Origin: an uncultured Alphaproteobacteria bacterium
GTDB lineage: Bacteria > Pseudomonadota > Alphaproteobacteria > ATCC43930 > CGMCC-115725
Assembly: GCA_963703855.1 (NCBI GenBank)
Contig: CAVPFW010000023.1
Location: 42,961 to 106,960 of the forward strand
Direction of reading: 5' to 3'
Length of the DNA stretch: 64,000 nucleotides
Shown: positions 32,847 through 46,724 of the stretch, piece after piece
Layout: every line of letters starts with the position of its first letter
How positions within the stretch are numbered: the first letter of the stretch is position 1
The notes under the pieces: generated by a model
What the model saw: only the letters and a program-made list of their open reading frames with translations
What the model was told of the DNA's origin: nothing
The model's database searches: none
Translations under genes and position numbers: made by a program

Positions 32847-37505
<4,659 letters not shown>

Positions 37506-37709
37506 CGCGGATGCTCTTCACCTGACATTGTTTCACGAATTGCGTCGACGCGTCCGTAAGCGGCGGCGCATACGCGATAATAGGCATGTCCAGGCGTGCG
37601 AATCGAGGCTTAATGTCGGCCGCCTCGTCGATCTTTTCGGGAGAAATCCGGGCGGAAGCCGATTTTGGCAGGAATGCCGGAGAACGGGATGCGGGCGCCC
37701 GCCTCCCTC

Positions 37710-37758
37710 GGTCGCGGCACGCCCGGAACGGTCGTGCCGCGACCGGGGACACATTTTT
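37710..37758 (+). other. Strong GC-rich stem-loop followed by a T5 tract, in the 535-bp gltB upstream region
   Basis: GGTCGCGGCACG (37710-37721) pairs perfectly with CGTGCCGCGACC (37733-37744) across an 11-nt loop. GGGGACACA then TTTTT (37754-37758) follows on the plus strand. Its function (terminator of an unannotated plus-strand transcript, or a gltB leader element) is undetermined. Confidence 0.3.
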
Positions 37759-38041
37759 GACTCACCATACAACCAGCGATTTGACCCGTATACAGGTACC
37801 AAACCTTAGCGTAAAAGGACCCCCCGTTATTTATCGACCATCGGGCTCCTCGGTGTCGGGCGCGCCCAGCGAAGGGACAGCGCACCCGGAACCGGACACT
37901 CAGAGCTAGCTGCAGACAGCGACCGAAGGACCCACCAGCGTTTTGGCGCGCATTCTCAGCGGACCGGGAGCCCCGCGACCGCGAAGGCAAGCCGCGCGCC
38001 AACGACGCGGAATCTGGTCTGAATTGGAGTAGGACAATAAA

Positions 38042-40450
38042 ATGATACGCTGCGTTATCGTGTTCAGCATGCTTGCGACACTGCTTTGGGGCGCCCCGCC
38101 ATTCGCTCTATTCCCAAAGGCCCAGGCCAGTGTCGACCCAACCCTCCACGGGCATCCGCCGCCCCCTCCTCCTACCGGTTCCCCGGTCGATACGATCACA
38201 ATCTCCAACCAGAGCGGCCTCGCCATCAGCAACTACCCGCTGCAGTTCGGCCGACCGTTCGTCGACGGCGCGATCGCCGACCAGCCGCAGGTGCTGATAT
38301 CGGGGAGCCCGGTCACGACCCAGGCCGATGTCAAGAACCGTTACCCGGACGGCTCGGTCGAATTCGCCGTCGTCGCAATCGTGATCCCGACCCTGCCGGC
38401 CAGCGGATACTTGACCCTGACCTTTCGCGACCAGGCCTCCGGCAACAACACCCCGCTGACCCAGGCGCAGATGCTGGACCCAGCCTACAATTTCGACGCG
38501 GCGATCACCTTTACCCCAAAATTGGGCATACCCCTGACCGTCAGCGCCCGCACCATGCTGCAGAACGGCGATTACAAGCTGTGGACCTCGGGCCCGGTGG
38601 CGCAGACCGTCATCCTCGGCGACGACACGGCAGCGCGCCGCTACGACATCGGGTTTGGCGGCGGGTTCCACCCGCTGCGCGCGCGCTTCTATGCGACTTT
38701 CTGGCCGGCGACGCACCAGGTCGCGGTGCGGGCCGTGGCCGAAAGCGGACTGACCACTGAATATGAGGACGCTGCCTACAAGGTGACGATCACCGCCGGA
38801 CGGGCGGCGCCGGCGACGGTGTATTCGGCCGACCTCTCCGGGACCCAGACGACGGACCCGAAGCTCCACTGGGCCGGAAGCGCATGGACGCAGCGCTTTT
38901 GGCTGCCCAATGGCGGGACGCCGTCGGCGCAGGTCGACATCGACAACAACCTCGCCTACCTGGCCTCGACCCGGTTTGTGCCGCATTACGACACCTCGGT
39001 TGCGATCACGCCGAGTGCGGTGGCGGCCGAATACGCGCTATGGACCGGCAAGCCGCACGACCTTTATGACGGGGTGTGGGACGGCGGGCTGTGGACCAAC
39101 TACATGGGCACGCCCGGCGCGCGGCAGGACATCAGCCCCTATCCGACCTGGACCGCGCTGTGGCTCTACACCGGCGACTGGCGGATGCGGCAGATGGCGC
39201 TGGGGATGGCCGATTTGGCCGCGGCGTGGCCCTATCATGCCCGCGAGACCGACCCGATCCGGAACCTGCTGCGCACCGACGCTCCCGGCGCCGGAACCGG
39301 TCTGGGCCTCCCGTTCTCGATCGTCGGCCGGCCGGGGATCGATACCTGGAACAGCAACGGCACGATCAGCGACGCTTTCACCGTTGTCGGGCCGGTCGCG
39401 ACCTCGAACCCTTGGGCCTATGAAGCTTCACACGAGCCGGCGCCGTTCTATCCGCAATATCTGCTGAGCGGCGATCCGTGGTATCTCGGCGAGATGGAGT
39501 TCCTGGCCAATTGGGACGCGGGCCGCTACCCGCCGGGCAACTGCAGCTATTGCCAGCGCGGTCCGGACGGCACCTATGGCGGGATCGGCGACGAACTGCG
39601 CGGCGCCGGCTGGGTGATCCGCAGCCGCGCCGAGGCGGCCTTTGCCGCGCCCGACCGCGACCCGGAGAAGACCTATCTCCAAAGCTTGGTCGACGATGCG
39701 CTGGCGCGCTGGGAAGGTGGCTTCGGCATCGCCGGGACCATCTATGACGGCACGGTGATGAAGAATTGGGGGGCGGGCCTCGGCGACTATTATACCCTCA
39801 ACAGCGGGCCGGACTCCACCAAGGTCCCGACCCTGCATTATTGGGAGAGCAACGGCAACCCCACCAACGACAATTCGCTGGTCGACAGCGACACGGCGGC
39901 CGGGTGGTTCCGGCCCGGAGCGGTCGGCTCGGTCACCGACCCGTGGATGCAGTGGTATACCCAGTACTGCCTCGGGCGCGCCGCCGAACTGGGGTTCGCC
40001 GCAGCACCGCTGGCGCAATGGTCCGGGCAATGGCTGACCGGCCTGATCAACAGCTCCGGCTTGCCGATCGGCATCACCTTTTACGAGGTTCCGGCCGAGG
40101 CCAAGGGCGGCGGCTTCCCGGCGACCTATGCAGCGTGGCTCGCCCTGTTCAACCCGGCCTACCTGACCGGCGCCGGGTGGAACCCGTCGCTCGGGGTCGA
40201 CCTGCCGCAATACTTTGCGAACAACCTCTATGCGCAGGGCCGCCCGGCCTACGCGATGGCGGCGCTCGCCCTGCTGGTCGACCAGGGCGCCGCGGGCGCG
40301 GCCCAGGCGTGGATGTGGATGGACGCCAACGTGCGCCGGCCGATCGCCGCGGCGACCGCGGGGGCACCGTTCTCGCAGGACCCGTCCTGGGCGATCGTGC
40401 CGCGCACCGATACGAACGCGTTGCCGCCGCAGCCGACCGCGCCGCAATAG
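38042..40450 (+). CDS. Large secreted protein (802 aa), unknown function
   Basis: The signal peptide is MIRCVIVFSMLATLLWGAPPFALFPKAQA, followed by a polyproline linker HGHPPPPPPTG. The N-terminal third looks beta-rich. The C-terminal two-thirds are Trp/Tyr-rich and probably helical (WPYHARE, GDPWYLGEMEFLANWD, WMQWYTQYCLGRAAELGF). I recognise no family. Confidence 0.75.
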   Translation: MIRCVIVFSMLATLLWGAPPFALFPKAQASVDPTLHGHPPPPPPTGSPVDTITISNQSGLAISNYPLQFGRPFVDGAIADQPQVLISGSPVTTQADVKNRYPDGSVEFAVVAIVIPTLPASGYLTLTFRDQASGNNTPLTQAQMLDPAYNFDAAITFTPKLGIPLTVSARTMLQNGDYKLWTSGPVAQTVILGDDTAARRYDIGFGGGFHPLRARFYATFWPATHQVAVRAVAESGLTTEYEDAAYKVTITAGRAAPATVYSADLSGTQTTDPKLHWAGSAWTQRFWLPNGGTPSAQVDIDNNLAYLASTRFVPHYDTSVAITPSAVAAEYALWTGKPHDLYDGVWDGGLWTNYMGTPGARQDISPYPTWTALWLYTGDWRMRQMALGMADLAAAWPYHARETDPIRNLLRTDAPGAGTGLGLPFSIVGRPGIDTWNSNGTISDAFTVVGPVATSNPWAYEASHEPAPFYPQYLLSGDPWYLGEMEFLANWDAGRYPPGNCSYCQRGPDGTYGGIGDELRGAGWVIRSRAEAAFAAPDRDPEKTYLQSLVDDALARWEGGFGIAGTIYDGTVMKNWGAGLGDYYTLNSGPDSTKVPTLHYWESNGNPTNDNSLVDSDTAAGWFRPGAVGSVTDPWMQWYTQYCLGRAAELGFAAAPLAQWSGQWLTGLINSSGLPIGITFYEVPAEAKGGGFPATYAAWLALFNPAYLTGAGWNPSLGVDLPQYFANNLYAQGRPAYAMAALALLVDQGAAGAAQAWMWMDANVRRPIAAATAGAPFSQDPSWAIVPRTDTNALPPQPTAPQ

Positions 40451-40459
40451 GTCCACCCG

Positions 40460-42241
40460 GTGCCGCTGCAGCTCCTCAGCCGCCTGAGAACGACGCGAAG
40501 TCTCGCCCGGGATTTCCGCGAAGCGCTGTCGCTGCAGCAAAAGGGCCACCTGCCGGAAGCGGCGAGGCTTTATCGAGACGTGCTGCAGCGCGACCCTGGC
40601 CACGTACAGGCGCTGTTCAATCTCGGGCTCGTTCGGGTCCGCCAGGGCGGGCTCGACGACGCCATCGGCCTGCTCGGCGAGGCGCTCCGCCGGCAGCCCG
40701 ACTTTGCCGAGGCGCACAACGCCCTCGCCATCGCGCTGCGCTTGTCGGGCCATCACGAGGAGGCGCTGGCGCACTACGCGCAGGCCCTCGCCATCAAGCC
40801 CGACTATGCCGAAGTCGAGAACAATATCGGAATAGCGCTGCAGGGGCGGGGGCGTTCGCCGGAGGCGATCGCGCATTTCGAGAGGGCGGTTTCCCTCAAA
40901 CCCGATTACGCCGAGGCGGAGAACAACCTGGGCGCCGCATTGCGGGCGGTCCACCGCTACGAGGAGGCGGCTGCGCATTACCGCAGAGCTCTGGCGGCCA
41001 ACCCCGGTTCGGCCGCGGCGCACAGCAATCTCGGCTCGGCGCTTCAGCTCCTCGTCCGCCATGACCAGGCTCTGGCGCAGTTCGACCGGGCATTGGCGCT
41101 GAAGCCCGATCTGGCCGAGGCACATCACGGCCGCGGCACCGTGCTGCGCACCCTGGGCCGGCTCGACATGGCGCAGCAGGCGCTGGAACGGGCGATCGCA
41201 CTGGCGCCGCGCAAGGCCGAGTTCTACCGCTCCTTGGCCGAAAGCAAGCGCTTTGCCGAGAACGACCCGCACCGCACCATGATCGAGGCGCTGGCGCGCG
41301 ACATGGCGGCGCTGTCGGAGGAGGAGCAGGTGCACCTCCATTTCGCGCTGGGCAAGGTCTATGGCGATGTCGGTGAGGATCAGCGCGCGTTCGACCATCT
41401 TCTGCAAGGCAACGCGCTGAAGCGCCGGCGGATCGTCTATGACGAGGCCGCCGCACTGGCGCGGCTCGACCGCACCCGGGCCTTGTTCAGCGCCGAATTC
41501 ATGCGCGAGCGGGCAGGACAGGGCGACCCGTCGCCGGTGCCGGTGTTCATCATCGGCATGCCGCGCTCGGGCACGACCTTGGTCGAGCAGATGCTGGCGA
41601 GCCACCCGCAGGTTCATGGCGCCGGCGAGCTCAGCGATTTCGCGGCCGCGGTGGCGGCGCTCGACGGCCCCGACGGTGTTCCGCCCGACATCGGCGGCGA
41701 GGAGCTGCGCCGCATCGGGGCGGATTACCTGGCGCGGGTCACGCCGGCGGCGCCGATGGCCCGGCATATCACCGACAAGATGCCGGCGAATTTCCGCTTT
41801 GCCGGGCTGATCCATCTGGCCTTGCCCAACGCGCGCATCATCCATATCAGCCGCGACCCGGTCGACACCTGCCTGTCGTGCTTTTCGATCCTGTTCGGCG
41901 GCGACCAGCCCTTTACCTACGAGCTGGGCGAGCTCGGGCGCTATTACCGCGGCTATGCGGCGCTGATGGCGCACTGGCGCCGGGTGCTGCCGCCGGGGGT
42001 CATGCTCGAAGTCCGGTACGAGGCGCTGGTCGGCGATTTCGAGCCGCAGGCGCGCCGTATCCTCGCCCATTGCGGTCTCGCCTGGGACGATGCCTGCCTC
42101 GATTTCCACAACACCGAGCGGCCGGTCCACACCGCGAGCGCGGCCCAGGTGCGCCGGCCGGTCTACCAAACCTCGGTCGGCCGCTGGCGCCCGCCGGGAG
42201 ATGTGCTGCGCCCCTTGCTCGACGCGCTCGACCGGGATTAG
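40460..42241 (+). CDS. TPR-repeat sulfotransferase, paralogue 1 (593 aa)
   Basis: GTG start 9 nt after the preceding stop. About 7 TPR units are present (AEAHNALAIALRLSGHHEEALAHYAQALAIKPDYAE...). The C-terminal sulfotransferase domain carries a 5'-PSB loop FIIGMPRSGTTLVEQML and a 3'-PB-like segment IIHISRDPVDTCLSCF. Confidence 0.8.
   Translation: MPLQLLSRLRTTRSLARDFREALSLQQKGHLPEAARLYRDVLQRDPGHVQALFNLGLVRVRQGGLDDAIGLLGEALRRQPDFAEAHNALAIALRLSGHHEEALAHYAQALAIKPDYAEVENNIGIALQGRGRSPEAIAHFERAVSLKPDYAEAENNLGAALRAVHRYEEAAAHYRRALAANPGSAAAHSNLGSALQLLVRHDQALAQFDRALALKPDLAEAHHGRGTVLRTLGRLDMAQQALERAIALAPRKAEFYRSLAESKRFAENDPHRTMIEALARDMAALSEEEQVHLHFALGKVYGDVGEDQRAFDHLLQGNALKRRRIVYDEAAALARLDRTRALFSAEFMRERAGQGDPSPVPVFIIGMPRSGTTLVEQMLASHPQVHGAGELSDFAAAVAALDGPDGVPPDIGGEELRRIGADYLARVTPAAPMARHITDKMPANFRFAGLIHLALPNARIIHISRDPVDTCLSCFSILFGGDQPFTYELGELGRYYRGYAALMAHWRRVLPPGVMLEVRYEALVGDFEPQARRILAHCGLAWDDACLDFHNTERPVHTASAAQVRRPVYQTSVGRWRPPGDVLRPLLDALDRD
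41060..42241 (+). repeat. Tandem duplication, copy A (3' 1.18 kb of sulfotransferase paralogue 1)
   Basis: It aligns without gaps to 42679-43860 at a constant offset of 1619 nt. By eye there are only a few mismatches in the last ~700 nt (for example CAGGTTCATGGC vs CAGGTCCACGGC). The first ~400 nt are clearly more divergent. Confidence 0.85.
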
Positions 42242-42291
42242 AGGGTAACCGCGGCGCCCTGCTGAAGCAAATTGCGGAAAGGTTTCGGCGG

Positions 42292-43860
42292 ATGTTCGGA
42301 AACCGGCCCCCGCGATCGGGCGATCCGGCGCGGCTTTTTCAGCAGGGACTGGCGCTGCACCAGGCGGGCCGCTTTACCGAAGCCGAACGGCTTTATCGAG
42401 CCGTCCTGCGGCGGAATGGCGATCATCTCGAAGCGGTTTACAATCTCGGTCTGCTGCGGTTGCTGGGAGGCGATTGCGAGGCGGCTGCAAAGCTGCTGCG
42501 CAAGGCGCTCCATCGCCGGCCGAACCTTGCCGAGGCGCACAACGCGCTCGCCGTGGCGCTGCGCACGCTCGGGCGCCCCGACGAGGCGATCGTGCATTTC
42601 GAGAAGGCGCTCGCGGTCAAGCCCGACTTTGCCGAGGCGCACAACAATCTCGGCGCCACCCTGCTGCCGCTGCGCCGCCATGACGAGGCGTTGGCGCAGT
42701 TCGACCGGGCGTTGGCGCTGAAGCCCGATCTGGCCGAGGCATATCACGGCCGCGGCACCGTGCTGCGGATACTGGGTCGGCTCGACATGGCGCAGCAGGC
42801 GCTGGAACGGGCGGTCGCGCTGGCGCCGCGCAAGGCCGAGTTCTACCGCTCCTTGGCCGAAAGCAAGCGCTTTGCCGAGGACGATCCGCACCGCGCCCAG
42901 ATCGAGGCGCTGGCGCGCGACATGGCGGCGCTGCCGGAGGAGGAGCAGGTGCACCTCCATTTCGCGCTGGGCAAGGTCTATGGCGATGCCGGCGAGGATC
43001 AGCGCGCGTTCGACCACCTTCTGCAAGGAAATGCGCTGAAGCGCCGGCGGATCGTCTATGACGAGGCTGCCGCACTGGCGCGGCTCGACCGCACCCGGGC
43101 CTTGTTCAGCGCAGAGGTCGTGCGCGAGCGGGCGGGGCAGGGCGACCCGTCGCCGGTGCCGGTGTTCATCATCGGCATGCCGCGCTCGGGCACGACCTTG
43201 GTCGAGCAGATGCTGGCGAGCCACCCGCAGGTCCACGGCGCCGGCGAGCTCAGCGATTTCGCGGCCGCGGTGGCGGCGCTCGACGGCCCCGACGGTGTTC
43301 CGCCCGACATCGGCGGCGAGGAGCTGCGCCGCATCGGGGCGGATTATCTGGCGCGGGTCACGCCGGCGGCGCCGATGGCCCGGCATATCACCGACAAGAT
43401 GCCGGCGAATTTCCGCTTTGCCGGGCTGATCCATCTGGCCTTGCCCAACGCGCGCATCATCCATATCAGCCGCGACCCGGTCGACACCTGCCTGTCGTGC
43501 TTTTCGATCCTGTTCGGCGGCGACCAGCCCTTTACCTACGAGCTGGGCGAGCTCGGGCGCTATTACCGCGGCTATGCGGCGCTGATGGCGCACTGGCGCC
43601 GGGTGCTGCCGCCGGGGGTCATGCTCGAAGTCCGGTACGAGGCGCTGGTCGGCGATTTCGAGCCGCAGGCGCGCCGTATCCTCGCCCATTGCGGTCTCGC
43701 CTGGGACGATGCCTGCCTCGATTTCCACAACACCGAGCGGCCGGTCCACACCGCGAGCGCGGCCCAGGTGCGCCGGCCGGTCTACCAAACCTCGGTCGGC
43801 CGCTGGCGCCCGCCGGGAGATGTGCTGCGCCCCTTGCTCGACGCGCTCGACCGGGGTTAG
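42292..43860 (+). CDS. TPR-repeat sulfotransferase, paralogue 2 (522 aa)
   Basis: Internal ATG at 42292 of track ORF 41878..43860. MFGNRPPRSGDPARLFQQGLALHQAGRFTEAERLYRAVLRRNGDHLEAVYNLG... The C-terminal ~390 aa are nearly identical to paralogue 1, including PRSGTTLVEQML. It has about 2 fewer TPR units. Confidence 0.8.
   Translation: MFGNRPPRSGDPARLFQQGLALHQAGRFTEAERLYRAVLRRNGDHLEAVYNLGLLRLLGGDCEAAAKLLRKALHRRPNLAEAHNALAVALRTLGRPDEAIVHFEKALAVKPDFAEAHNNLGATLLPLRRHDEALAQFDRALALKPDLAEAYHGRGTVLRILGRLDMAQQALERAVALAPRKAEFYRSLAESKRFAEDDPHRAQIEALARDMAALPEEEQVHLHFALGKVYGDAGEDQRAFDHLLQGNALKRRRIVYDEAAALARLDRTRALFSAEVVRERAGQGDPSPVPVFIIGMPRSGTTLVEQMLASHPQVHGAGELSDFAAAVAALDGPDGVPPDIGGEELRRIGADYLARVTPAAPMARHITDKMPANFRFAGLIHLALPNARIIHISRDPVDTCLSCFSILFGGDQPFTYELGELGRYYRGYAALMAHWRRVLPPGVMLEVRYEALVGDFEPQARRILAHCGLAWDDACLDFHNTERPVHTASAAQVRRPVYQTSVGRWRPPGDVLRPLLDALDRG
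42679..43860 (+). repeat. Tandem duplication, copy B
   Basis: See copy A (41060-42241). Confidence 0.85.
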
Positions 43861-43866
43861 GGGCCG

Positions 43867-44478
43867 TCAACGTGCTGGGCAGGCCCTCTTGCGGCGCCGC
43901 CAAAGAAAACCAAACCCAAAAAGCGGACCCGCGAGAAGCGCCAGCGAGCGCGGCTCCGGCACCGCCGAGGGCAGCTCCTCGGCCAAAATGATCGTCACGC
44001 TGCTTGGCGAAAAGCTGGCCGGGACAGTGTTGTCGGGCGCAGGGAAGGCGCTCCCATAAGGGCCGGGAAAGCCGAGATACGAGAGGACCTGGTCGTTGAT
44101 GTTGAAGGTGTTTGGCCCCGCGGTCACCGGGGTCATGAACGTGCCGGTGCTGAACTGCGTCCCGAACAGCTTTACGCCGCTGGTGAAACCGAGCGAAGCC
44201 CCGTCGACAAAGGCCTGGTAAACGTCTCCGGGGAAGACTGCCACGTTGGGGTTGGGCTCAACGGTCATCACCAACGTGCCCGTGAACGGAGCAGTAAAGG
44301 AAATCGGCCCGGGAATGCCACCGACGGCACCGAGCGGGCCGAGACCGGTGCTGCCCGCCGGAGAGGGATTGGCAGCCGAAGCCGATGTAGTGAAGGTGTG
44401 GATCGGCGTGGGAGCGGCATTGGCGCCCGCGGAAACGAGGCCGATCAGCGCCGCTCCCGGCAGAATGTAATGGTTCAT
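43867..44478 (-). CDS. PEP-CTERM sorting-domain secreted protein (203 aa)
   Basis: Internal ATG at 44478. The signal peptide is MNHYILPGAALIGLVSAGANA. The body is Gly/Pro/Thr/Phe-rich. The C-terminal SAVPEPRSLALLAGPLFGFGFLWRRRKR has a PEP motif, a TM helix and a basic tail. It is convergent with sulfotransferase 2, with only 6 nt between stops. Confidence 0.75.
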   Translation of the reverse strand: MNHYILPGAALIGLVSAGANAAPTPIHTFTTSASAANPSPAGSTGLGPLGAVGGIPGPISFTAPFTGTLVMTVEPNPNVAVFPGDVYQAFVDGASLGFTSGVKLFGTQFSTGTFMTPVTAGPNTFNINDQVLSYLGFPGPYGSAFPAPDNTVPASFSPSSVTIILAEELPSAVPEPRSLALLAGPLFGFGFLWRRRKRACPAR

Positions 44479-44713
44479 CCGATGAATCCCGTTAAGGTTA
44501 AGATGCTGGGTCGCCGAGTTTGAGCCGCGACATCCAAGAGCGCCGCCGCTGATGGTCTGCTGTTCGGTTTTTCCCCGCGCAGATTTGTATCGCCTGAGCT
44601 GCGTCAAAATCGCGTCGTCAAACAGTCAGGCCGGCGTCAAATTAACCACTCGGAGCGATTCCGGCCTGATCCGAACGCGATGTGCGGGCGCCGGCAAGGC
44701 CCGGCAGCGAGGA

Positions 44714-45784
44714 TCATTCCGGGCGAAATTGCTTGCCGTGTCCGACGAGCCGCTCGCGCGGCAGACAAACCCCCTCGCTGTCGTCGTTGACGACATGCCC
44801 GATGACCTGCGCCCGCCGGCCGTGGCGTTCCAGGATCGCCAGGATCGCGGCGGCATCCTGTTCGGCGGCGAGGACGCAAAAGCCGACGCCCATGTTGTAG
44901 ACCTCGAACATCTCGGCTCTGGCGATCCCTCCGTGTTTTTCGATCAGCCGGAAAATCGGCGGCGCCGGCGGCAGATTGTCGATCGCGAACCCGACCCTGG
45001 CGGCAACCCGCGGCAGATTGAGCAGACCGTCGCCGGTGATGTTGACCAACGCCTTGACCGTCGGGACGCTTTCGATGATGTCGAGGACCTCAGGCACATA
45101 GATCAGGGTCGGGCGCAGCAGCTCTTCGCCGAGCGGGATGCCGAGCTCGGGGAAGACGTGGTCGATCCCCAGCCGGGCCTTCGCAAAAAAGATGTGGCGG
45201 GCGAGGGTGAGGCCGTTGCTGTGGATGCCGCTGCTCTCGATGCCGATGACGACGTCGCCGGGTACCAGGTCGCGGCCGGTAATGATCCGGTCGAGCGGTA
45301 CCAGCCCGACCGCCATCCCGACCAGGTCGAAACCGCGGACCGAGTCCTTGAGCGGCGAGATCTCGCCGCCGGAAATCGAGACCCGGGCCTGCTTGGCGCC
45401 CTCGGCCAACCCCACCGCGATCGCGCCCAGCATCTCGGCGTCGGCCGTCTCGACGGCGATGTAGTCGACCATCGAGATCGGGCGCGCGCCGACGCAGATC
45501 ACGTCGTTGACGTTCATCGCGACGCAGTCGATGCCGATCGTGTCGTATTTGTTCATCATCTGCGCCACGATCGACTTCGACCCGACCCCGTCGGTGCAGA
45601 TCGCCAGACCGACGCCGCCGATATCGATCACATTGGCGAAATAGCCGATGTCGAGCTGGACCGCGCCGATGCCGCCGGCGGCCGGCCAAGTCTGCTTGAT
45701 GCGGTCGATGATCTTGCGCAGGCCGCGGTCAACGGCGGCGATATCGACCCCGGCCGCCTTGTACGCGGGGTCGGTTGCGGTCAT
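44714..45784 (-). CDS. AIR-synthase (PurM) superfamily protein, divergent paralogue
   Basis: Internal ATG at 45784. YKAAGVDIAAVDRGL...LAICTDGVGSKSIVAQMMNKYDTIGIDCVAMNVNDVICVGARP...ISGGEIS...IGIESSGIHSNGLTLAR...NITGDGLLNL...FEVYNMGVGF. It lacks the canonical GGFGGLF segment of housekeeping PurM, so I do not call it purM. Confidence 0.75.
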   Translation of the reverse strand: MTATDPAYKAAGVDIAAVDRGLRKIIDRIKQTWPAAGGIGAVQLDIGYFANVIDIGGVGLAICTDGVGSKSIVAQMMNKYDTIGIDCVAMNVNDVICVGARPISMVDYIAVETADAEMLGAIAVGLAEGAKQARVSISGGEISPLKDSVRGFDLVGMAVGLVPLDRIITGRDLVPGDVVIGIESSGIHSNGLTLARHIFFAKARLGIDHVFPELGIPLGEELLRPTLIYVPEVLDIIESVPTVKALVNITGDGLLNLPRVAARVGFAIDNLPPAPPIFRLIEKHGGIARAEMFEVYNMGVGFCVLAAEQDAAAILAILERHGRRAQVIGHVVNDDSEGVCLPRERLVGHGKQFRPE

Positions 45785-45878
45785 GGCGGCGCTCCGGCGA
45801 CGGTCAGGCATGCCCGATTAGCCCTATCAAATTTCACCGTGCAGATCGACTATTTGGGTCGCAGACGGAGGATTGCCC

Positions 45879-46724
45879 ATGACCGACGCATTGCAGCTAC
45901 GCCCGCTCGGCGAACACCTCGGCACCGAGGCGCTCGGGATCGACTTGTCGGCGCTCGACGACGAAACCTTCGCCCGGATCGGCCGCGCCTTTGCCGAGCA
46001 CCCGGTTCTGGTGTTCCGCGACCAGCATCTCGGCGCTGCCGATATCGCCGCTTTCGGCCGCCGGTTCGGGGTGCCGCGCAAGCATTCGCTGGTCGGATAC
46101 CGCCACCCGGACCACCCGGAAGTCTCGTGGCTGCGCAATGTCGACGATGCCGGCAACATCGACTGGTACGGGGTCAAGCGCGCGACCGACTGGCACACCA
46201 ACTCGACCTACGAGGAGGAATTGCCGCTGCTGGCGATGCTGCACGCGCTCGAAGTTCCCGCGACCAAAGGCGGGACGATGTTCGCCGATATGTGCGCCGC
46301 CTATGACGCCTTGCCGCCAGCGACGAAGCAGCGGCTCGCCGGGCTGGTGGGCCTGCACGGCCGCACCGACGGCCCTGCCGGCGCAAGGCTCTACGACCCC
46401 GAAGAGGAGATGCGCCGGACCGACAAGAAATATGTCGAGCAGCGCCGCCCGGCGGTGGTGCCGCACCCGGTCACCGGCCGCCCGATCCTGTTCGTCAATC
46501 CGATGCACACGCACGGCTTCGAGGGCATCGACCGCGACGCGGCCTGGAAGCTGATCGAGGAGTTGGCTGCGCACGCCACCCAGGAGCGCTTCACCTATTA
46601 CCATTCCTGGCGGGTCGGCGATCTGCTGATCTGGGACGAGCGGGCGACGATGCATCGGGGCGCCGGCGATTACCACCCCGAGCAGCGTCGCGTGATGCTG
46701 CGCACGATCGTCTATCCGAACTAA
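45879..46724 (+). CDS. TauD/TfdA family Fe(II)/2-oxoglutarate dioxygenase
   Basis: ATG at 45879 lies 6 nt after GGAGGA. LRPLGEHLGTEALGIDLS..., HPVLVFRDQHL, the facial-triad context DWHTNSTYEE, and HSWRVGDLLIWDERATMHRG. Confidence 0.85.
   Translation: MTDALQLRPLGEHLGTEALGIDLSALDDETFARIGRAFAEHPVLVFRDQHLGAADIAAFGRRFGVPRKHSLVGYRHPDHPEVSWLRNVDDAGNIDWYGVKRATDWHTNSTYEEELPLLAMLHALEVPATKGGTMFADMCAAYDALPPATKQRLAGLVGLHGRTDGPAGARLYDPEEEMRRTDKKYVEQRRPAVVPHPVTGRPILFVNPMHTHGFEGIDRDAAWKLIEELAAHATQERFTYYHSWRVGDLLIWDERATMHRGAGDYHPEQRRVMLRTIVYPN

What the first reader, a model, noticed from the sequence alone, without database searches (positions are those of the whole stretch)
38042..44478. Secreted 802-aa orphan protein, two tandem TPR-sulfotransferases and a PEP-CTERM protein: candidate cell-surface sulfation module
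What the sequence shows:
- A large signal-peptide protein with a polyproline linker and no family I can name.
- Nine nt later, a GTG-initiated TPR protein. Its C-terminal domain carries textbook PAPS-binding loops (FIIGMPRSGTTLVEQML and RDPVDTCLS).
- A second, near-identical paralogue follows.
- A PEP-CTERM-anchored Gly/Pro/Thr-rich secreted protein converges on them, with only 6 nt between stop codons.
- The block starts after a 535-bp, locally A/T-richer spacer next to core gltB.

Established knowledge: the PRSGTT-type 5'-PSB loop is shared by carbohydrate sulfotransferases and by protein-tyrosine sulfotransferases (TPST, Xanthomonas RaxST). TPR arrays are protein/peptide-binding modules. 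PEP-CTERM proteins are exosortase substrates linked to exopolysaccharide loci.

Inference: the cluster may sulfate either an exopolysaccharide or secreted/PEP-CTERM proteins. In the first case the 802-aa protein would be the glycan-active partner. In the second, the PEP-CTERM protein has Asp-Tyr-type contexts such as GDVYQAF. No exosortase, PAPS-synthesis or glycosyltransferase genes lie in the window, so the module would depend on genes elsewhere.
Basis: partly seen in the sequence, partly recalled or inferred. Interest (0 to 1): 0.7.

Follow-up and report, generated by a model that had tools for sequence, protein, structure and literature searches.

The report
Secreted glycanase-like, TPR-sulfotransferase, PEP-CTERM gene cluster
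A soil alphaproteobacterium keeps together a secreted enzyme-like protein with a polysaccharide-lyase-type fold, two cytoplasmic sulfotransferases and a surface-anchored protein, which may sulfate a cell-surface molecule, but the target is unknown and every part belongs to a recognisable family.

Summary

- **The 802-aa protein is not an orphan.** It belongs to a large uncharacterised secreted family (3,592 clusters at 50% identity) with no Pfam model. A confident model (pLDDT 90) resembles PL26 exo-rhamnogalacturonan lyase most closely, though weakly. Paralogues sit beside an exosortase-A-associated O-glycosylation ligase, GT2 and Wzx genes.
- **The two sulfotransferases are intact.** They carry TPR arrays and have no signal peptide. 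The PAPS-loop residues checked and the catalytic residues are invariant in 104 relatives. The closest solved relatives are protein-tyrosine sulfotransferases. Only the 3' two-thirds are near-identical, through gene conversion.
- **The PEP-CTERM protein** is a jelly-roll (C1q/CBM35-like) surface protein from a 77-member family; all hits that carry an organism name are Stellaceae.

Synteny is partial. The sulfotransferase directly follows the 802-aa homologue in 7 of 77 genome loci, and the PEP-CTERM gene is present in five of those. A closely related metagenome contig pair shows the same layout. Each family mostly occurs outside this arrangement.

Best reading (about 0.4): a module that sulfates a surface glycan, tied to the PEP-CTERM system. 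Main rival (about 0.3): protein sulfation. It is a testable lead, not a discovery.

The parts
37506..38041 (.). Divergent intergenic spacer between gltB and the 802-aa gene (536 bp, GC about 0.63). Presumed promoter region. A GGAG lies 13 nt upstream of the ATG.
   Evidence: No sigma-70-like consensus site was found.
38042..40450 (+). Secreted 802-aa protein ('P'). It has a signal peptide and a poly-Pro linker (residues 1-45), beta-rich domains (about 50-300) and a helical domain of about 12 main helices (about 300-770). The fold is PcRGLX/PL26-like. It is a putative glycan-cleaving enzyme of a large family without a Pfam model.
   Evidence: AF2 pLDDT 90, pTM 0.90. Foldseek best hit 5xqo, PL26 lyase, E 7e-5, prob 1.0, TMq 0.36. 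Homologue P0043 hits PF19501 PcRGLX_1st above its cut-off. Family size. Accessory domains of long relatives.
40460..42241 (+). TPR-sulfotransferase 1 (593 aa, GTG start, no signal peptide). About 7 TPRs, a helical linker and a Sulfotransfer_3 domain (residues 361-544 and beyond).
   Evidence: Pfam PF13469, 170.5 bits. PDB best hits are TPSTs, 8w5z 2.1e-9 and 3ap1 1.1e-7, with R78/E99/K158/S285 aligned. The TPR part resembles OGT/SPINDLY. Residues R369, S370, E390, K440, R465, S473 and S560 are invariant in 104 relatives.
42292..43860 (+). TPR-sulfotransferase 2 (522 aa). The TPR array is shorter and diverged. The C-terminal part (about 393 aa) is almost identical to ST1.
   Evidence: Pfam PF13469, 171.6 bits. 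The fixed-offset comparison (1,619 nt) is. The same 593+522 tandem pair occurs in L078/L079.
41060..42241 (+). Copy 1 of the homogenised 3' block shared by the two sulfotransferase genes.
   Evidence: 97.2% identity over 1,180 nt within the window. The corresponding pair in L079 is 88.4% identical, and window-to-L079 orthologues are 88-91% identical. This points to gene conversion after an older duplication.
42679..43860 (+). Copy 2 of the homogenised 3' block.
43867..44478 (-). PEP-CTERM-type surface protein (203 aa). It has a signal peptide, a jelly-roll beta-sandwich (residues 24-168), a VPEP motif, a transmembrane helix (176-198) and an RRRKR tail.
   Evidence: Sequence. 77 homologues; the hits that carry an organism name are Stellaceae MAGs. 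Alignment A3 gives the conserved motifs GDVYQAF, NDQxLSY and PYG. AF2 pLDDT 80.8. Foldseek hits BclA/C1q-like and CBM35/xylan-binding modules, E about 2e-4.

Best explanation
This is a conserved envelope-modification cluster of a Stellaceae-like alphaproteobacterium, most likely acting on a surface glycan or exopolysaccharide that belongs to the PEP-CTERM/exosortase system.

**Shown**
- (a) Gene 1 encodes a Sec-exported protein whose confident model has beta-rich domains followed by a helical domain. Its closest solved relative is a PL26 polysaccharide lyase.
- (b) Genes 2 and 3 encode cytoplasmic sulfotransferases with the PAPS-binding loops conserved and a conserved R/E/K/S catalytic set, each behind a TPR array.
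- (c) Gene 4 encodes a jelly-roll protein with a PEP-CTERM-type anchor.
- (d) The arrangement recurs in related genomes and in two genomic contexts.
- (e) Paralogues of gene 1 from four separate clades sit next to an exosortase-A-associated O-glycosylation-ligase homologue (TIGR03097). Others lie near GT2 and Wzx genes.

**Inferred**
- The sulfotransferases use PAPS to sulfate a sugar unit on the cytoplasmic face, for example a lipid-linked repeat unit. The TPR arrays would dock them to the assembly machinery.
- After export, the secreted PL26-like enzyme trims or releases the anionic polymer, as AlgL, PslG or BcsZ do in other EPS systems.
- The PEP-CTERM jelly-roll protein is sorted by an exosortase encoded elsewhere and binds or carries that glycan in the matrix.
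For: - **Fold of P.** (pLDDT 90). (PL26 5xqo, E 7e-5, prob 1.0; weak GH88/GH105/PL toroid hits). (homologue P0043 hits PcRGLX_1st, 25.7 bits against a cut-off of 22.1).
- **Secreted carbohydrate-enzyme-like family.** Long relatives carry Laminin_G_3, BACON, Big_7, fn3, PG_binding_1, a T9SS tail and the RGI_lyase beta domain.
- **Link of P to glycan assembly.** A TIGR03097 homologue (387.7 bits, cut-off 188.1) was found in 12 of 77 loci and lies directly or nearly adjacent upstream of P in most of them, next to P members of four separate clades. GT2-GtrA and a Wzx-type flippase lie in other P loci.
- **P and ST are 9 nt apart and co-directional**. P-ST adjacency occurs in L001, L006, L015, L016, L021, L022, L048 and L078/79.
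- **The trio P-ST-PEP occurs away from gltB** in L006 and L015, in genomes whose gltB-adjacent P lacks ST and PEP (L013, L012).
- **A TPR-ST pair sits inside a GT4/Wzx polysaccharide cluster** (L087).
- **The PEP-CTERM protein's fold** resembles CBM35 and xylan-binding modules.
- **Established knowledge.** PEP-CTERM proteins are associated with EPS loci (PMC1569441).
Against: - No glycosyltransferase, flippase, polymerase, exosortase or PAPS-synthesis gene lies next to the cluster in the window.
- The sulfotransferase domain's closest solved relatives are protein-tyrosine sulfotransferases, not carbohydrate sulfotransferases. TPR-plus-transferase fusions (OGT, SPINDLY) are typically protein-modifying.
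- P-ST adjacency has a single evolutionary origin, in 7 of 77 genome loci. The other P contexts have no adjacent sulfotransferase.
- The PL26 similarity is distant (TMq 0.36, 10% identity), and no catalytic residues were mapped.
- The synteny could be neutral conservation within one clade.
Confidence: 0.4

Rival explanations
1. The TPR-sulfotransferases modify proteins. They would sulfate Tyr, or Ser/Thr, of the neighbouring PEP-CTERM protein or another secreted protein in the cytoplasm before Sec export, as RaxST does for RaxX. The TPR array would be the substrate-binding module, as in OGT. The 802-aa protein would then be unrelated, or would act on a glycan of the same surface protein.
For: - The best PDB matches of the ST domain are TPSTs over almost the whole domain (8w5z 2.1e-9; TPST2 3ap1 1.1e-7). 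R78, E99, K158 and S285 all align to identical residues, and these are invariant in 104 relatives.
- The best natural match of the TPR part is the OGT/SPINDLY TPR array.
- Neither ST has a signal peptide.
- TPR-ST genes lie next to PEP-CTERM proteins in three contexts with non-homologous PEP-CTERM bodies: the window type, L085 (TIGR02595 28.3 bits) and L023.
- Elsewhere they lie next to other small secreted or structural proteins: phage-tail-collar-domain proteins together with a TPR-GNAT acetyltransferase (L089), and flgD (L086).
- Two Tyr (Y87, Y134) are nearly invariant in the PEP-CTERM family.
- Haft 2006 already suggested that TPR proteins may guide covalent modification in the PEP-CTERM system (PMC1569441).
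Against: - The conserved Tyr lie in a beta-strand (Y87) and a short helix (Y134) of a confidently folded jelly-roll. They have no acidic cluster.
- The PEP-CTERM family occurs without any sulfotransferase in L083, L084 and L080/81. P-ST occurs without the PEP-CTERM gene in L016 and L048.
- TPSTs are almost the only Sulfotransfer_3 members with solved structures, so the 'closest structure' is biased. A Glu base is also used by heparan-sulfate sulfotransferases.
- Of six contexts sampled through the sulfotransferase alone, only one had a PEP-CTERM neighbour, which is not significant on its own.
- This reading does not explain the tight P-ST operon.
Confidence: 0.3
2. There is no functional module. 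Three independently acting genes are kept adjacent only by shared ancestry within a narrow clade: a secreted glycan-degrading enzyme for nutrient polysaccharides, sulfotransferases with an unrelated cytoplasmic or small-molecule acceptor, and one of many PEP-CTERM proteins.
For: - Each family is mostly found outside this arrangement. 63 of 77 P loci have no sulfotransferase within 10 kb.
- TPR-ST has at least 7,195 relatives in heterogeneous contexts.
- PEP-family members stand alone in L080/81 and L083, and sit beside purM without a sulfotransferase in L084.
- The flanking genes gltB and purM are housekeeping genes and are syntenic too.
- P is a highly expanded multi-copy family, with several paralogues per MAG and tandem arrays. 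Such expansion is typical of substrate-diverse degradative enzymes.
Against: - The 9-nt P-ST spacing suggests co-transcription.
- The trio persists where the flanks differ (L006 and L015 against the gltB-adjacent loci). It stays within a few kb after rearrangement in L082.
- The ST pair and its 3' halves are maintained and homogenised.
- ST-PEP-CTERM adjacency recurs with unrelated PEP-CTERM proteins.
Confidence: 0.25

Closest known systems
PL26 exo-rhamnogalacturonan lyase PcRGLX (PDB 5xq3/5xqo) and the Pfam PcRGLX-like domains
   Same: Best structural match of the 802-aa model (E 7e-5, prob 1.0). Both are multi-domain, with beta-rich domains and a helical domain. One family member hits the PcRGLX N-terminal RIFT-barrel model above its threshold. 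Both are secreted.
   Different: About 10% sequence identity and TMq 0.36. The window protein hits no PcRGLX Pfam model. Catalytic residues were not mapped. The substrate is unknown. PcRGLX is fungal.
Protein-tyrosine sulfotransferases (human TPST2, PDB 3ap1; TPST 8w5z) and Xanthomonas RaxST
   Same: Sulfotransfer_3 fold. The 5'-PSB and 3'-PB loops and the catalytic Arg/Glu/Lys/Ser align and are conserved. Like RaxST, these enzymes are cytoplasmic bacterial proteins that would act before export.
   Different: TPSTs and RaxST have no TPR array. No acidic Tyr-peptide substrate is evident. The acceptor is untested. E-values are only 1e-7 to 2e-9.
O-GlcNAc transferase / SPINDLY (TPR array plus transferase domain)
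   Same: An N-terminal TPR superhelix is fused to a C-terminal group-transfer domain. The TPR part's best natural PDB matches are OGT and SPINDLY.
   Different: The catalytic domain is a PAPS sulfotransferase, not a GT41 glycosyltransferase. That the TPR array binds the substrate is inferred, not shown.
PEP-CTERM/exosortase (XrtA/EpsH) EPS-associated protein sorting system (Haft 2006, PMC1569441)
   Same: The C-terminal VPEP motif, transmembrane helix and Arg-rich tail. Homologues are annotated as PEP-CTERM proteins. P-family paralogues neighbour the exosortase-A-associated ligase TIGR03097.
   Different: The window protein is below the HMM thresholds. No exosortase or EPS genes are in the window. 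No sulfotransferase has been described as part of this system in the papers I searched.
Cyanobacterial sulfated-EPS cluster xss (synechan; PMC8205485)
   Same: It combines sulfotransferases (PF00685/PF13469 types) with surface polysaccharide production.
   Different: The xss cluster contains eight glycosyltransferases and Wzx/Wzy/PCP genes, and its sulfotransferases are not described as TPR fusions. Here no assembly genes are adjacent. That paper states that no sulfated polysaccharide had been reported in other bacteria.

Membership tests
Sulfotransfer_3 (PF13469) PAPS-dependent sulfotransferases | Profile match above the curated cut-off | tested here: met
   170.5 bits (ST1) and 171.6 bits (ST2) against a cut-off of 27.
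Sulfotransfer_3 (PF13469) PAPS-dependent sulfotransferases | 5'-PSB loop (PRSGTT) and 3'-PB Arg/Ser present | tested here: met
   R369, S370, R465 and S473 are invariant in 104 relatives; T372 is T/S in 103. The motifs can be read directly.
Protein-tyrosine sulfotransferase (TPST/RaxST-like) | Catalytic Arg78/Glu99/Lys158/Ser285 equivalents | tested here: met
   The phmmer alignment to TPST2 3ap1 places R369, E390, K440 and S560 opposite R78, E99, K158 and S285. All four are invariant.
Protein-tyrosine sulfotransferase (TPST/RaxST-like) | A Tyr-containing peptide or protein acceptor is sulfated | not testable with these tools
   This needs an enzyme assay or sulfoproteomics. The candidate Tyr (Y87, Y134) are not in acidic, disordered contexts.
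TPR-repeat proteins | Multiple 34-residue TPR units above threshold | tested here: met
   TPR_1, TPR_2, TPR_11 and others at E 1e-38 to 1e-41. OGT-like by PDB search.
PEP-CTERM sorting-domain proteins (TIGR02595 / PF07589) | Profile match above the cut-off | tested here: not met
   PF07589 scores 15.7 bits against a cut-off of 20.7. TIGR02595 is not listed at E<0.01. Homologues P0164, P0189 and P0193 carry PF07589, and four homologues are named PEP-CTERM by NCBI.
PEP-CTERM sorting-domain proteins (TIGR02595 / PF07589) | C-terminal P-E-P motif, hydrophobic helix and basic cluster, together with an N-terminal signal peptide | tested here: met
   VPEPRSLALLAGPLFGFGFLWRRRKR at the C-terminus. E175 and P176 are invariant and P174 nearly invariant in 45 sequences. 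The model has a helix at 176-198.
PEP-CTERM sorting-domain proteins (TIGR02595 / PF07589) | An exosortase (XrtA/EpsH) is encoded in the same genome | not testable with these tools
   Only the 64-kb window is available, and its source contig could not be retrieved.
Polysaccharide lyase family 26 (PcRGLX-like) | Sequence or profile membership | tested here: not met
   No Pfam or NCBIfam hit for the window protein. A profile search against PDB sequences found nothing meaningful. Only homologue P0043 hits PcRGLX_1st.
Polysaccharide lyase family 26 (PcRGLX-like) | Same overall fold | tested here: inconclusive
   Top Foldseek hit, prob 1.0 and E 7e-5, but TMq 0.36 and rmsd 12 A.
Polysaccharide lyase family 26 (PcRGLX-like) | Catalytic residues and lyase activity | not tested
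Residues invariant in both A1 and the distant set A2 include R71, Q94, R230, E234, Y306, R401, E402, R430, H464, Y473, R520 and D538.
Exosortase-A-type EPS locus | Neighbouring TIGR03097 ligase, glycosyltransferases and a flippase | tested here: not met
   These are absent next to the window cluster. They are present next to paralogues of the 802-aa protein in other loci.

The most novel reading that the evidence does not exclude
TPR-fused, TPST-like sulfotransferases form a very large, uncharacterised bacterial family (at least 7,195 relatives). They could be protein sulfotransferases that use their TPR arrays to select secreted substrates, here PEP-CTERM surface proteins, before export. That would make protein O-sulfation a widespread bacterial surface modification rather than the single RaxST/RaxX case.
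Probability: 0.2. Interest if true: 0.8.

Novelty: new variant of a known kind. Interest (0 to 1): 0.45.

Why it matters
Outside cyanobacteria, sulfated bacterial surface polymers are held to be rare or unreported (PMC8205485). RaxST is the one bacterial tyrosine sulfotransferase that my literature searches found characterised.

Here an intact pair of PAPS sulfotransferases is linked to a secreted lyase-like enzyme and a PEP-CTERM surface protein. That gives a concrete, genetically tractable place to test what the large TPR-sulfotransferase family sulfates.

The work also defines a large secreted protein family (thousands of clusters, no Pfam model) with a PL26-like fold. This family repeatedly neighbours the exosortase-A-associated O-glycosylation ligase, which makes it a candidate new carbohydrate-active enzyme family of the PEP-CTERM/EPS system.

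Tried and rejected
- **'Orphan' status of the 802-aa protein.** Rejected.
- **Sequence-level link of the 802-aa family to solved structures.** A profile search against PDB sequences gave only noise, Hsp70 and a methyltransferase at E>0.02.
- **Source genome.** The window's own ST1 is in the protein database (P0338, contig 202,493 nt), but the contig could not be retrieved. Exosortase and cysDN/cysC could therefore not be searched.
- **Promoter and terminator scan of 37400-44800.** No sigma-70-like site was found. Terminator-like hits were at the chance level, 5 against 4.9 expected.
- **The sigma-54 activator next to the distant TPR-ST in type-C loci.** Its best hit is the PEP-CTERM-box regulator TIGR02915, but at 349 bits against a cut-off of 502.6, and other enhancer-binding-protein models score nearly as well. 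This is inconclusive.
- **Regex counts of PEP-CTERM tails for an enrichment test.** Two versions disagreed and both missed the window's own protein, so I report contexts by hand, not a statistic.
- **Literature.** I found no paper on TPR-sulfotransferases with PEP-CTERM proteins, and none on PL26 relatives in bacteria.
- **ORF 44552-46306 (+).** Rejected as an antisense artefact over purM.

Full report
**1. What is in the sequence**

The region lies in high-GC DNA (0.63-0.71) and holds the following genes.
- gltB, 32847-37505 (-). NF008730 scores 1,681 bits.
- A 536-bp spacer.
- An 802-aa ORF, 38042-40450 (+).
- A GTG-initiated 593-aa ORF, 40460-42241 (+), starting nine nt later.
- A second ORF whose best start is the ATG at 42292 (522 aa, ending at 43860).
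- A convergent 203-aa ORF, 43867-44478 (-), with 6 nt between the stop codons.
- purM, 44714-45811 (-). TIGR00878 scores 330 bits.
- A TauD-family dioxygenase.

The 584-aa ORF at 44552-46306 (+) is an antisense artefact over purM.

**2. The 802-aa protein**

It has no Pfam or NCBIfam hit, but it is not an orphan.
- A word-indexed search found at least 288 homologues at 42-77% identity. The ones that carry a name come from Stellaceae MAGs.
- An exhaustive profile search of 1.84 billion cluster representatives found 3,592 clusters at E<=1e-3 and 1,312 at E<=1e-30. Many are embedded in proteins of 1,000-2,900 aa.
- Those long relatives carry PG_binding_1, Big_7, Laminin_G_3, fn3, Ig, beta-helix, BACON, a T9SS sorting tail and the rhamnogalacturonan-lyase beta-sheet domain. 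This is the accessory repertoire of secreted carbohydrate-active or surface proteins.

An AlphaFold model built on 42 sequences is confident (pLDDT 90, pTM 0.90). Residues 13-45, covering part of the signal peptide and the poly-Pro linker, are disordered. Beta-rich domains span about 50-300. A helical domain with about 12 main helices spans about 300-770.

Foldseek against the PDB gives the PL26 exo-rhamnogalacturonan lyase PcRGLX as the best match (5xqo; E 7e-5, prob 1.0, but TMq only 0.36). GH38 follows, then weak GH88, GH105 and PL toroid hits. One family member, P0043, hits Pfam PcRGLX_1st above its cut-off. A profile search against PDB sequences found nothing.

I therefore describe the protein as PcRGLX-like in fold and do not file it in PL26. 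Many polar residues are invariant even among distant members, including R71, Q94, R230, E234, Y306, R401, E402, R430, H464, Y473, R520 and D538. That pattern fits an enzyme. Lyase and hydrolase chemistry cannot be told apart from these data.

**3. Neighbourhoods of the family**

I examined 77 genome loci. The family is multi-copy in Stellaceae-like MAGs, with tandem arrays of up to four copies. It also occurs in Acidobacteriota, Saccharibacteria, Myxococcota, Planctomycetota and Burkholderiales.

Using a simple GC3-based gene caller and clustering, the recurrent contexts are these.
- **A (the window type): P followed by TPR-ST.** Found in L001, L006, L015, L016, L021, L022 and L048. The PEP-CTERM homologue lies convergent in L001, L006, L015, L021 and L022.
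- **B (about 16 loci).** TetR, P, an HdeA-like protein, DUF2092, an HpnL-like membrane protein, a histidine phosphatase, a GH63-like protein and RND efflux genes.
- **C and F: a divergently oriented homologue of TIGR03097.** This model is named 'putative O-glycosylation ligase, exosortase A system-associated' (387.7 bits, cut-off 188.1). It occurs in 12 loci and lies directly or nearly adjacent upstream of P in most of them. The adjacent P members fall in four separate clades of the P tree.
- **E.** GT2-GtrA and a Wzx-type flippase.

At family level, then, P is tied to glycan assembly and to the exosortase system. It is tied to a sulfotransferase in one subgroup only. In seven further loci a 43-46%-identical TPR-ST lies about 8 kb downstream.

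**4. The sulfotransferases**

Both have N-terminal TPR arrays and a C-terminal Sulfotransfer_3 domain (170.5 and 171.6 bits). Neither has a signal peptide.

The TPR part's best natural PDB relatives are the OGT and SPINDLY arrays. The catalytic domain alone matches protein-tyrosine sulfotransferases best (8w5z 2.1e-9; TPST2 3ap1 1.1e-7). Heparan-sulfate 3-OSTs reach only E of about 0.03.

Counting chain positions in that alignment places ST1 R369, E390, K440 and S560 opposite TPST2 R78, E99, K158 and S285. The identity of those four as the TPST2 catalytic residues rests on my own knowledge of the TPST2 structure paper. These four, together with S370 of the 5'-PSB loop and R465 and S473 of the 3'-PB loop, are invariant in 104 family sequences; T372 is T/S in 103.

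The family is very large, with at least 7,195 hits at E<=1e-10 among a capped 8,000 candidates. Sources name its members only 'sulfotransferase' or 'TPR repeat protein'.

**5. The two copies**

At a fixed offset of 1,619 nt the last 1,180 nt are 97.2% identical, and the last 700 nt are 99.4% identical. The 5' TPR parts are 22-70% identical, and ST2 is shorter by two internal deletions in the TPR region.

The same 593+522 pair exists in L078/L079, which represent one related organism whose PEP-CTERM protein is 88% identical to the window's. It probably also exists on a 7,856-nt JGI contig (P0341, P0343, P0125).

In L079 the two 3' halves are only 88.4% identical to each other. Window-to-L079 orthologues are 88-91% identical. 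The duplication therefore predates the split of these organisms. The near-identity in the window reflects recent gene conversion, not a new duplication.

**6. The PEP-CTERM protein**

The HMMs are below threshold for this sequence. Even so, the tail VPEP, a hydrophobic helix and RRRKR are textbook features, and E175 and P176 are invariant and P174 nearly invariant in the family. Homologues are annotated as PEP-CTERM proteins.

The family has 77 members; every hit that carries an organism name is from a Stellaceae MAG. The model (pLDDT 80.8) is a jelly-roll covering residues 24-168, followed by a transmembrane helix. Its best PDB matches are BclA/C1q-type trimeric heads and CBM35 or xylan-binding modules, at E of about 2e-4.

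The nearly invariant Y87 (GDVYQAF) begins a beta-strand, and Y134 ends a short helix. Neither sits in an acidic disordered segment.

Contexts of the family vary.
- L078/79 have the same layout as the window.
- L082 is rearranged (ST, PEP, purM, TauD, P, Wzy_C-like ligase) but stays within a few kb.
- L084 has purM and PEP without a sulfotransferase.
- L083 and the distant L080/81 have the PEP gene with neither P nor a sulfotransferase nearby.

**7. Contexts of other TPR-sulfotransferases**

These were sampled through the sulfotransferase alone.
- **L085:** two TPR-STs (one of them split) interleaved with two PEP-CTERM proteins. Their bodies are unrelated to the window's protein (TIGR02595 28.3 bits).
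- **L087:** two tandem TPR-STs inside a GT4/Wzx polysaccharide cluster.
- **L089:** beside a TPR-GNAT acetyltransferase and three phage-tail-collar-domain proteins.
- **L086:** downstream of flgD.
- **L088:** among transporter genes.
- **L090:** directly next to gltB, with IS elements.
- **L023** (found through P): a 367-aa PEP-CTERM protein lies directly upstream of a TPR-ST.

ST-PEP-CTERM adjacency thus recurs with non-homologous PEP-CTERM proteins in three contexts. My samples are small and partly biased, and I could not produce a reliable statistic.

**8. Interpretation**

Three readings remain.
- **(i) A glycan-centred module (0.40).** It explains all three gene types: the tight P-ST operon, the family-level link of P to glycan assembly and exosortase genes, the TPR-ST pair in a GT/Wzx cluster, and the CBM-like PEP-CTERM protein. 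It does not explain the TPR array or the TPST-like catalytic domain well.
- **(ii) Protein sulfation before export (0.30).** It explains the TPST-like domain, the OGT-like architecture and the recurrent adjacency to small secreted proteins. It leaves P unexplained, and no convincing acceptor site is visible.
- **(iii) No functional unit (0.25).** It is supported by the fact that each family mostly occurs outside this arrangement. It is opposed by the persistence of the trio in different flanks and after rearrangement.

**9. Comparison and novelty**

Each part belongs to a recognisable kind: a Sulfotransfer_3 domain with TPRs, a PEP-CTERM protein, and a PL26-like fold.

What is not described in the papers I could search is the combination, and the existence of a very large secreted PcRGLX-like family tied to TIGR03097 and exosortase loci. 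Maeda et al. (PMC8205485) state that no sulfated polysaccharide had been reported in bacteria other than cyanobacteria. Haft et al. (PMC1569441) already speculated that TPR proteins may guide covalent modification in the PEP-CTERM system.

I rate this a new variant of known kinds. It gives a useful, testable hypothesis but no demonstrated new mechanism. Interest 0.45.

Noticed in passing
window 41060-42241 and 42679-43860: The 3' two-thirds of the two sulfotransferase genes are 97-100% identical in the window. The orthologous tandem pair in L079 is only 88% alike, so the window copies were homogenised by gene conversion after an older duplication.
   Followed up: yes
L001-L077 (for example L001/L002, L012/L015, L006/L013; tandem arrays in L040, L029, L035, L060): In a neighbour-joining tree, paralogues of the 802-aa family from the same MAG cluster together regardless of their locus type. 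Arrays of up to four tandem copies occur. This suggests concerted evolution or very recent lineage-specific expansion.
   Followed up: partly
L085:2387-8877: This is a second, independent cluster. Two TPR-sulfotransferases (one split into TPR and ST ORFs) are interleaved with two PEP-CTERM proteins whose bodies are unrelated to the window's protein.
   Followed up: partly
L089:3901-11872: A TPR-sulfotransferase lies in tandem with a TPR-GNAT acetyltransferase and another TPR protein, downstream of three small phage-tail-collar-domain proteins. This looks like a set of TPR-guided modifying enzymes.
   Followed up: no
L086:4780-7836 and L087:3190-13623: One TPR-sulfotransferase lies directly downstream of flgD. 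Elsewhere two tandem copies sit inside a GT4/Wzx polysaccharide cluster. The family's contexts are therefore heterogeneous.
   Followed up: no
L017:8066-9418 and 11 other loci; L082:492-1844: A homologue of TIGR03097 (exosortase-A-associated putative O-glycosylation ligase, DUF5935 plus Wzy_C) lies divergently next to members of the 802-aa family from four separate clades.
   Followed up: yes
L021:7724-8452, L022:8854-9573: In two orthologous loci an extra PEP-CTERM protein (cluster c39, about 240 aa) sits between gltB and the 802-aa homologue. In the window the corresponding place is the 536-bp spacer with no gene. I did not check the spacer for a relic of that gene.
   Followed up: no
window 44552-46306 (+): A 584-aa ORF with an Arg/Asp-rich low-complexity translation is an antisense artefact over purM. 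Such ORFs are typical of high-GC DNA.
   Followed up: yes
P0055, P0072, P0082, P0208 and other long homologues: Many longer family members carry an inserted or N-terminal segment that matches PF11863 (DUF3383, a phage-related family). It is absent from the window protein.
   Followed up: no
L090:1924-11150: In another MAG, gltB is followed directly by a TPR-sulfotransferase with no 802-aa gene, then by TPR and sulfotransferase fragments and several transposases. The gltB-adjacent site appears to be a hotspot for rearrangement.
   Followed up: no
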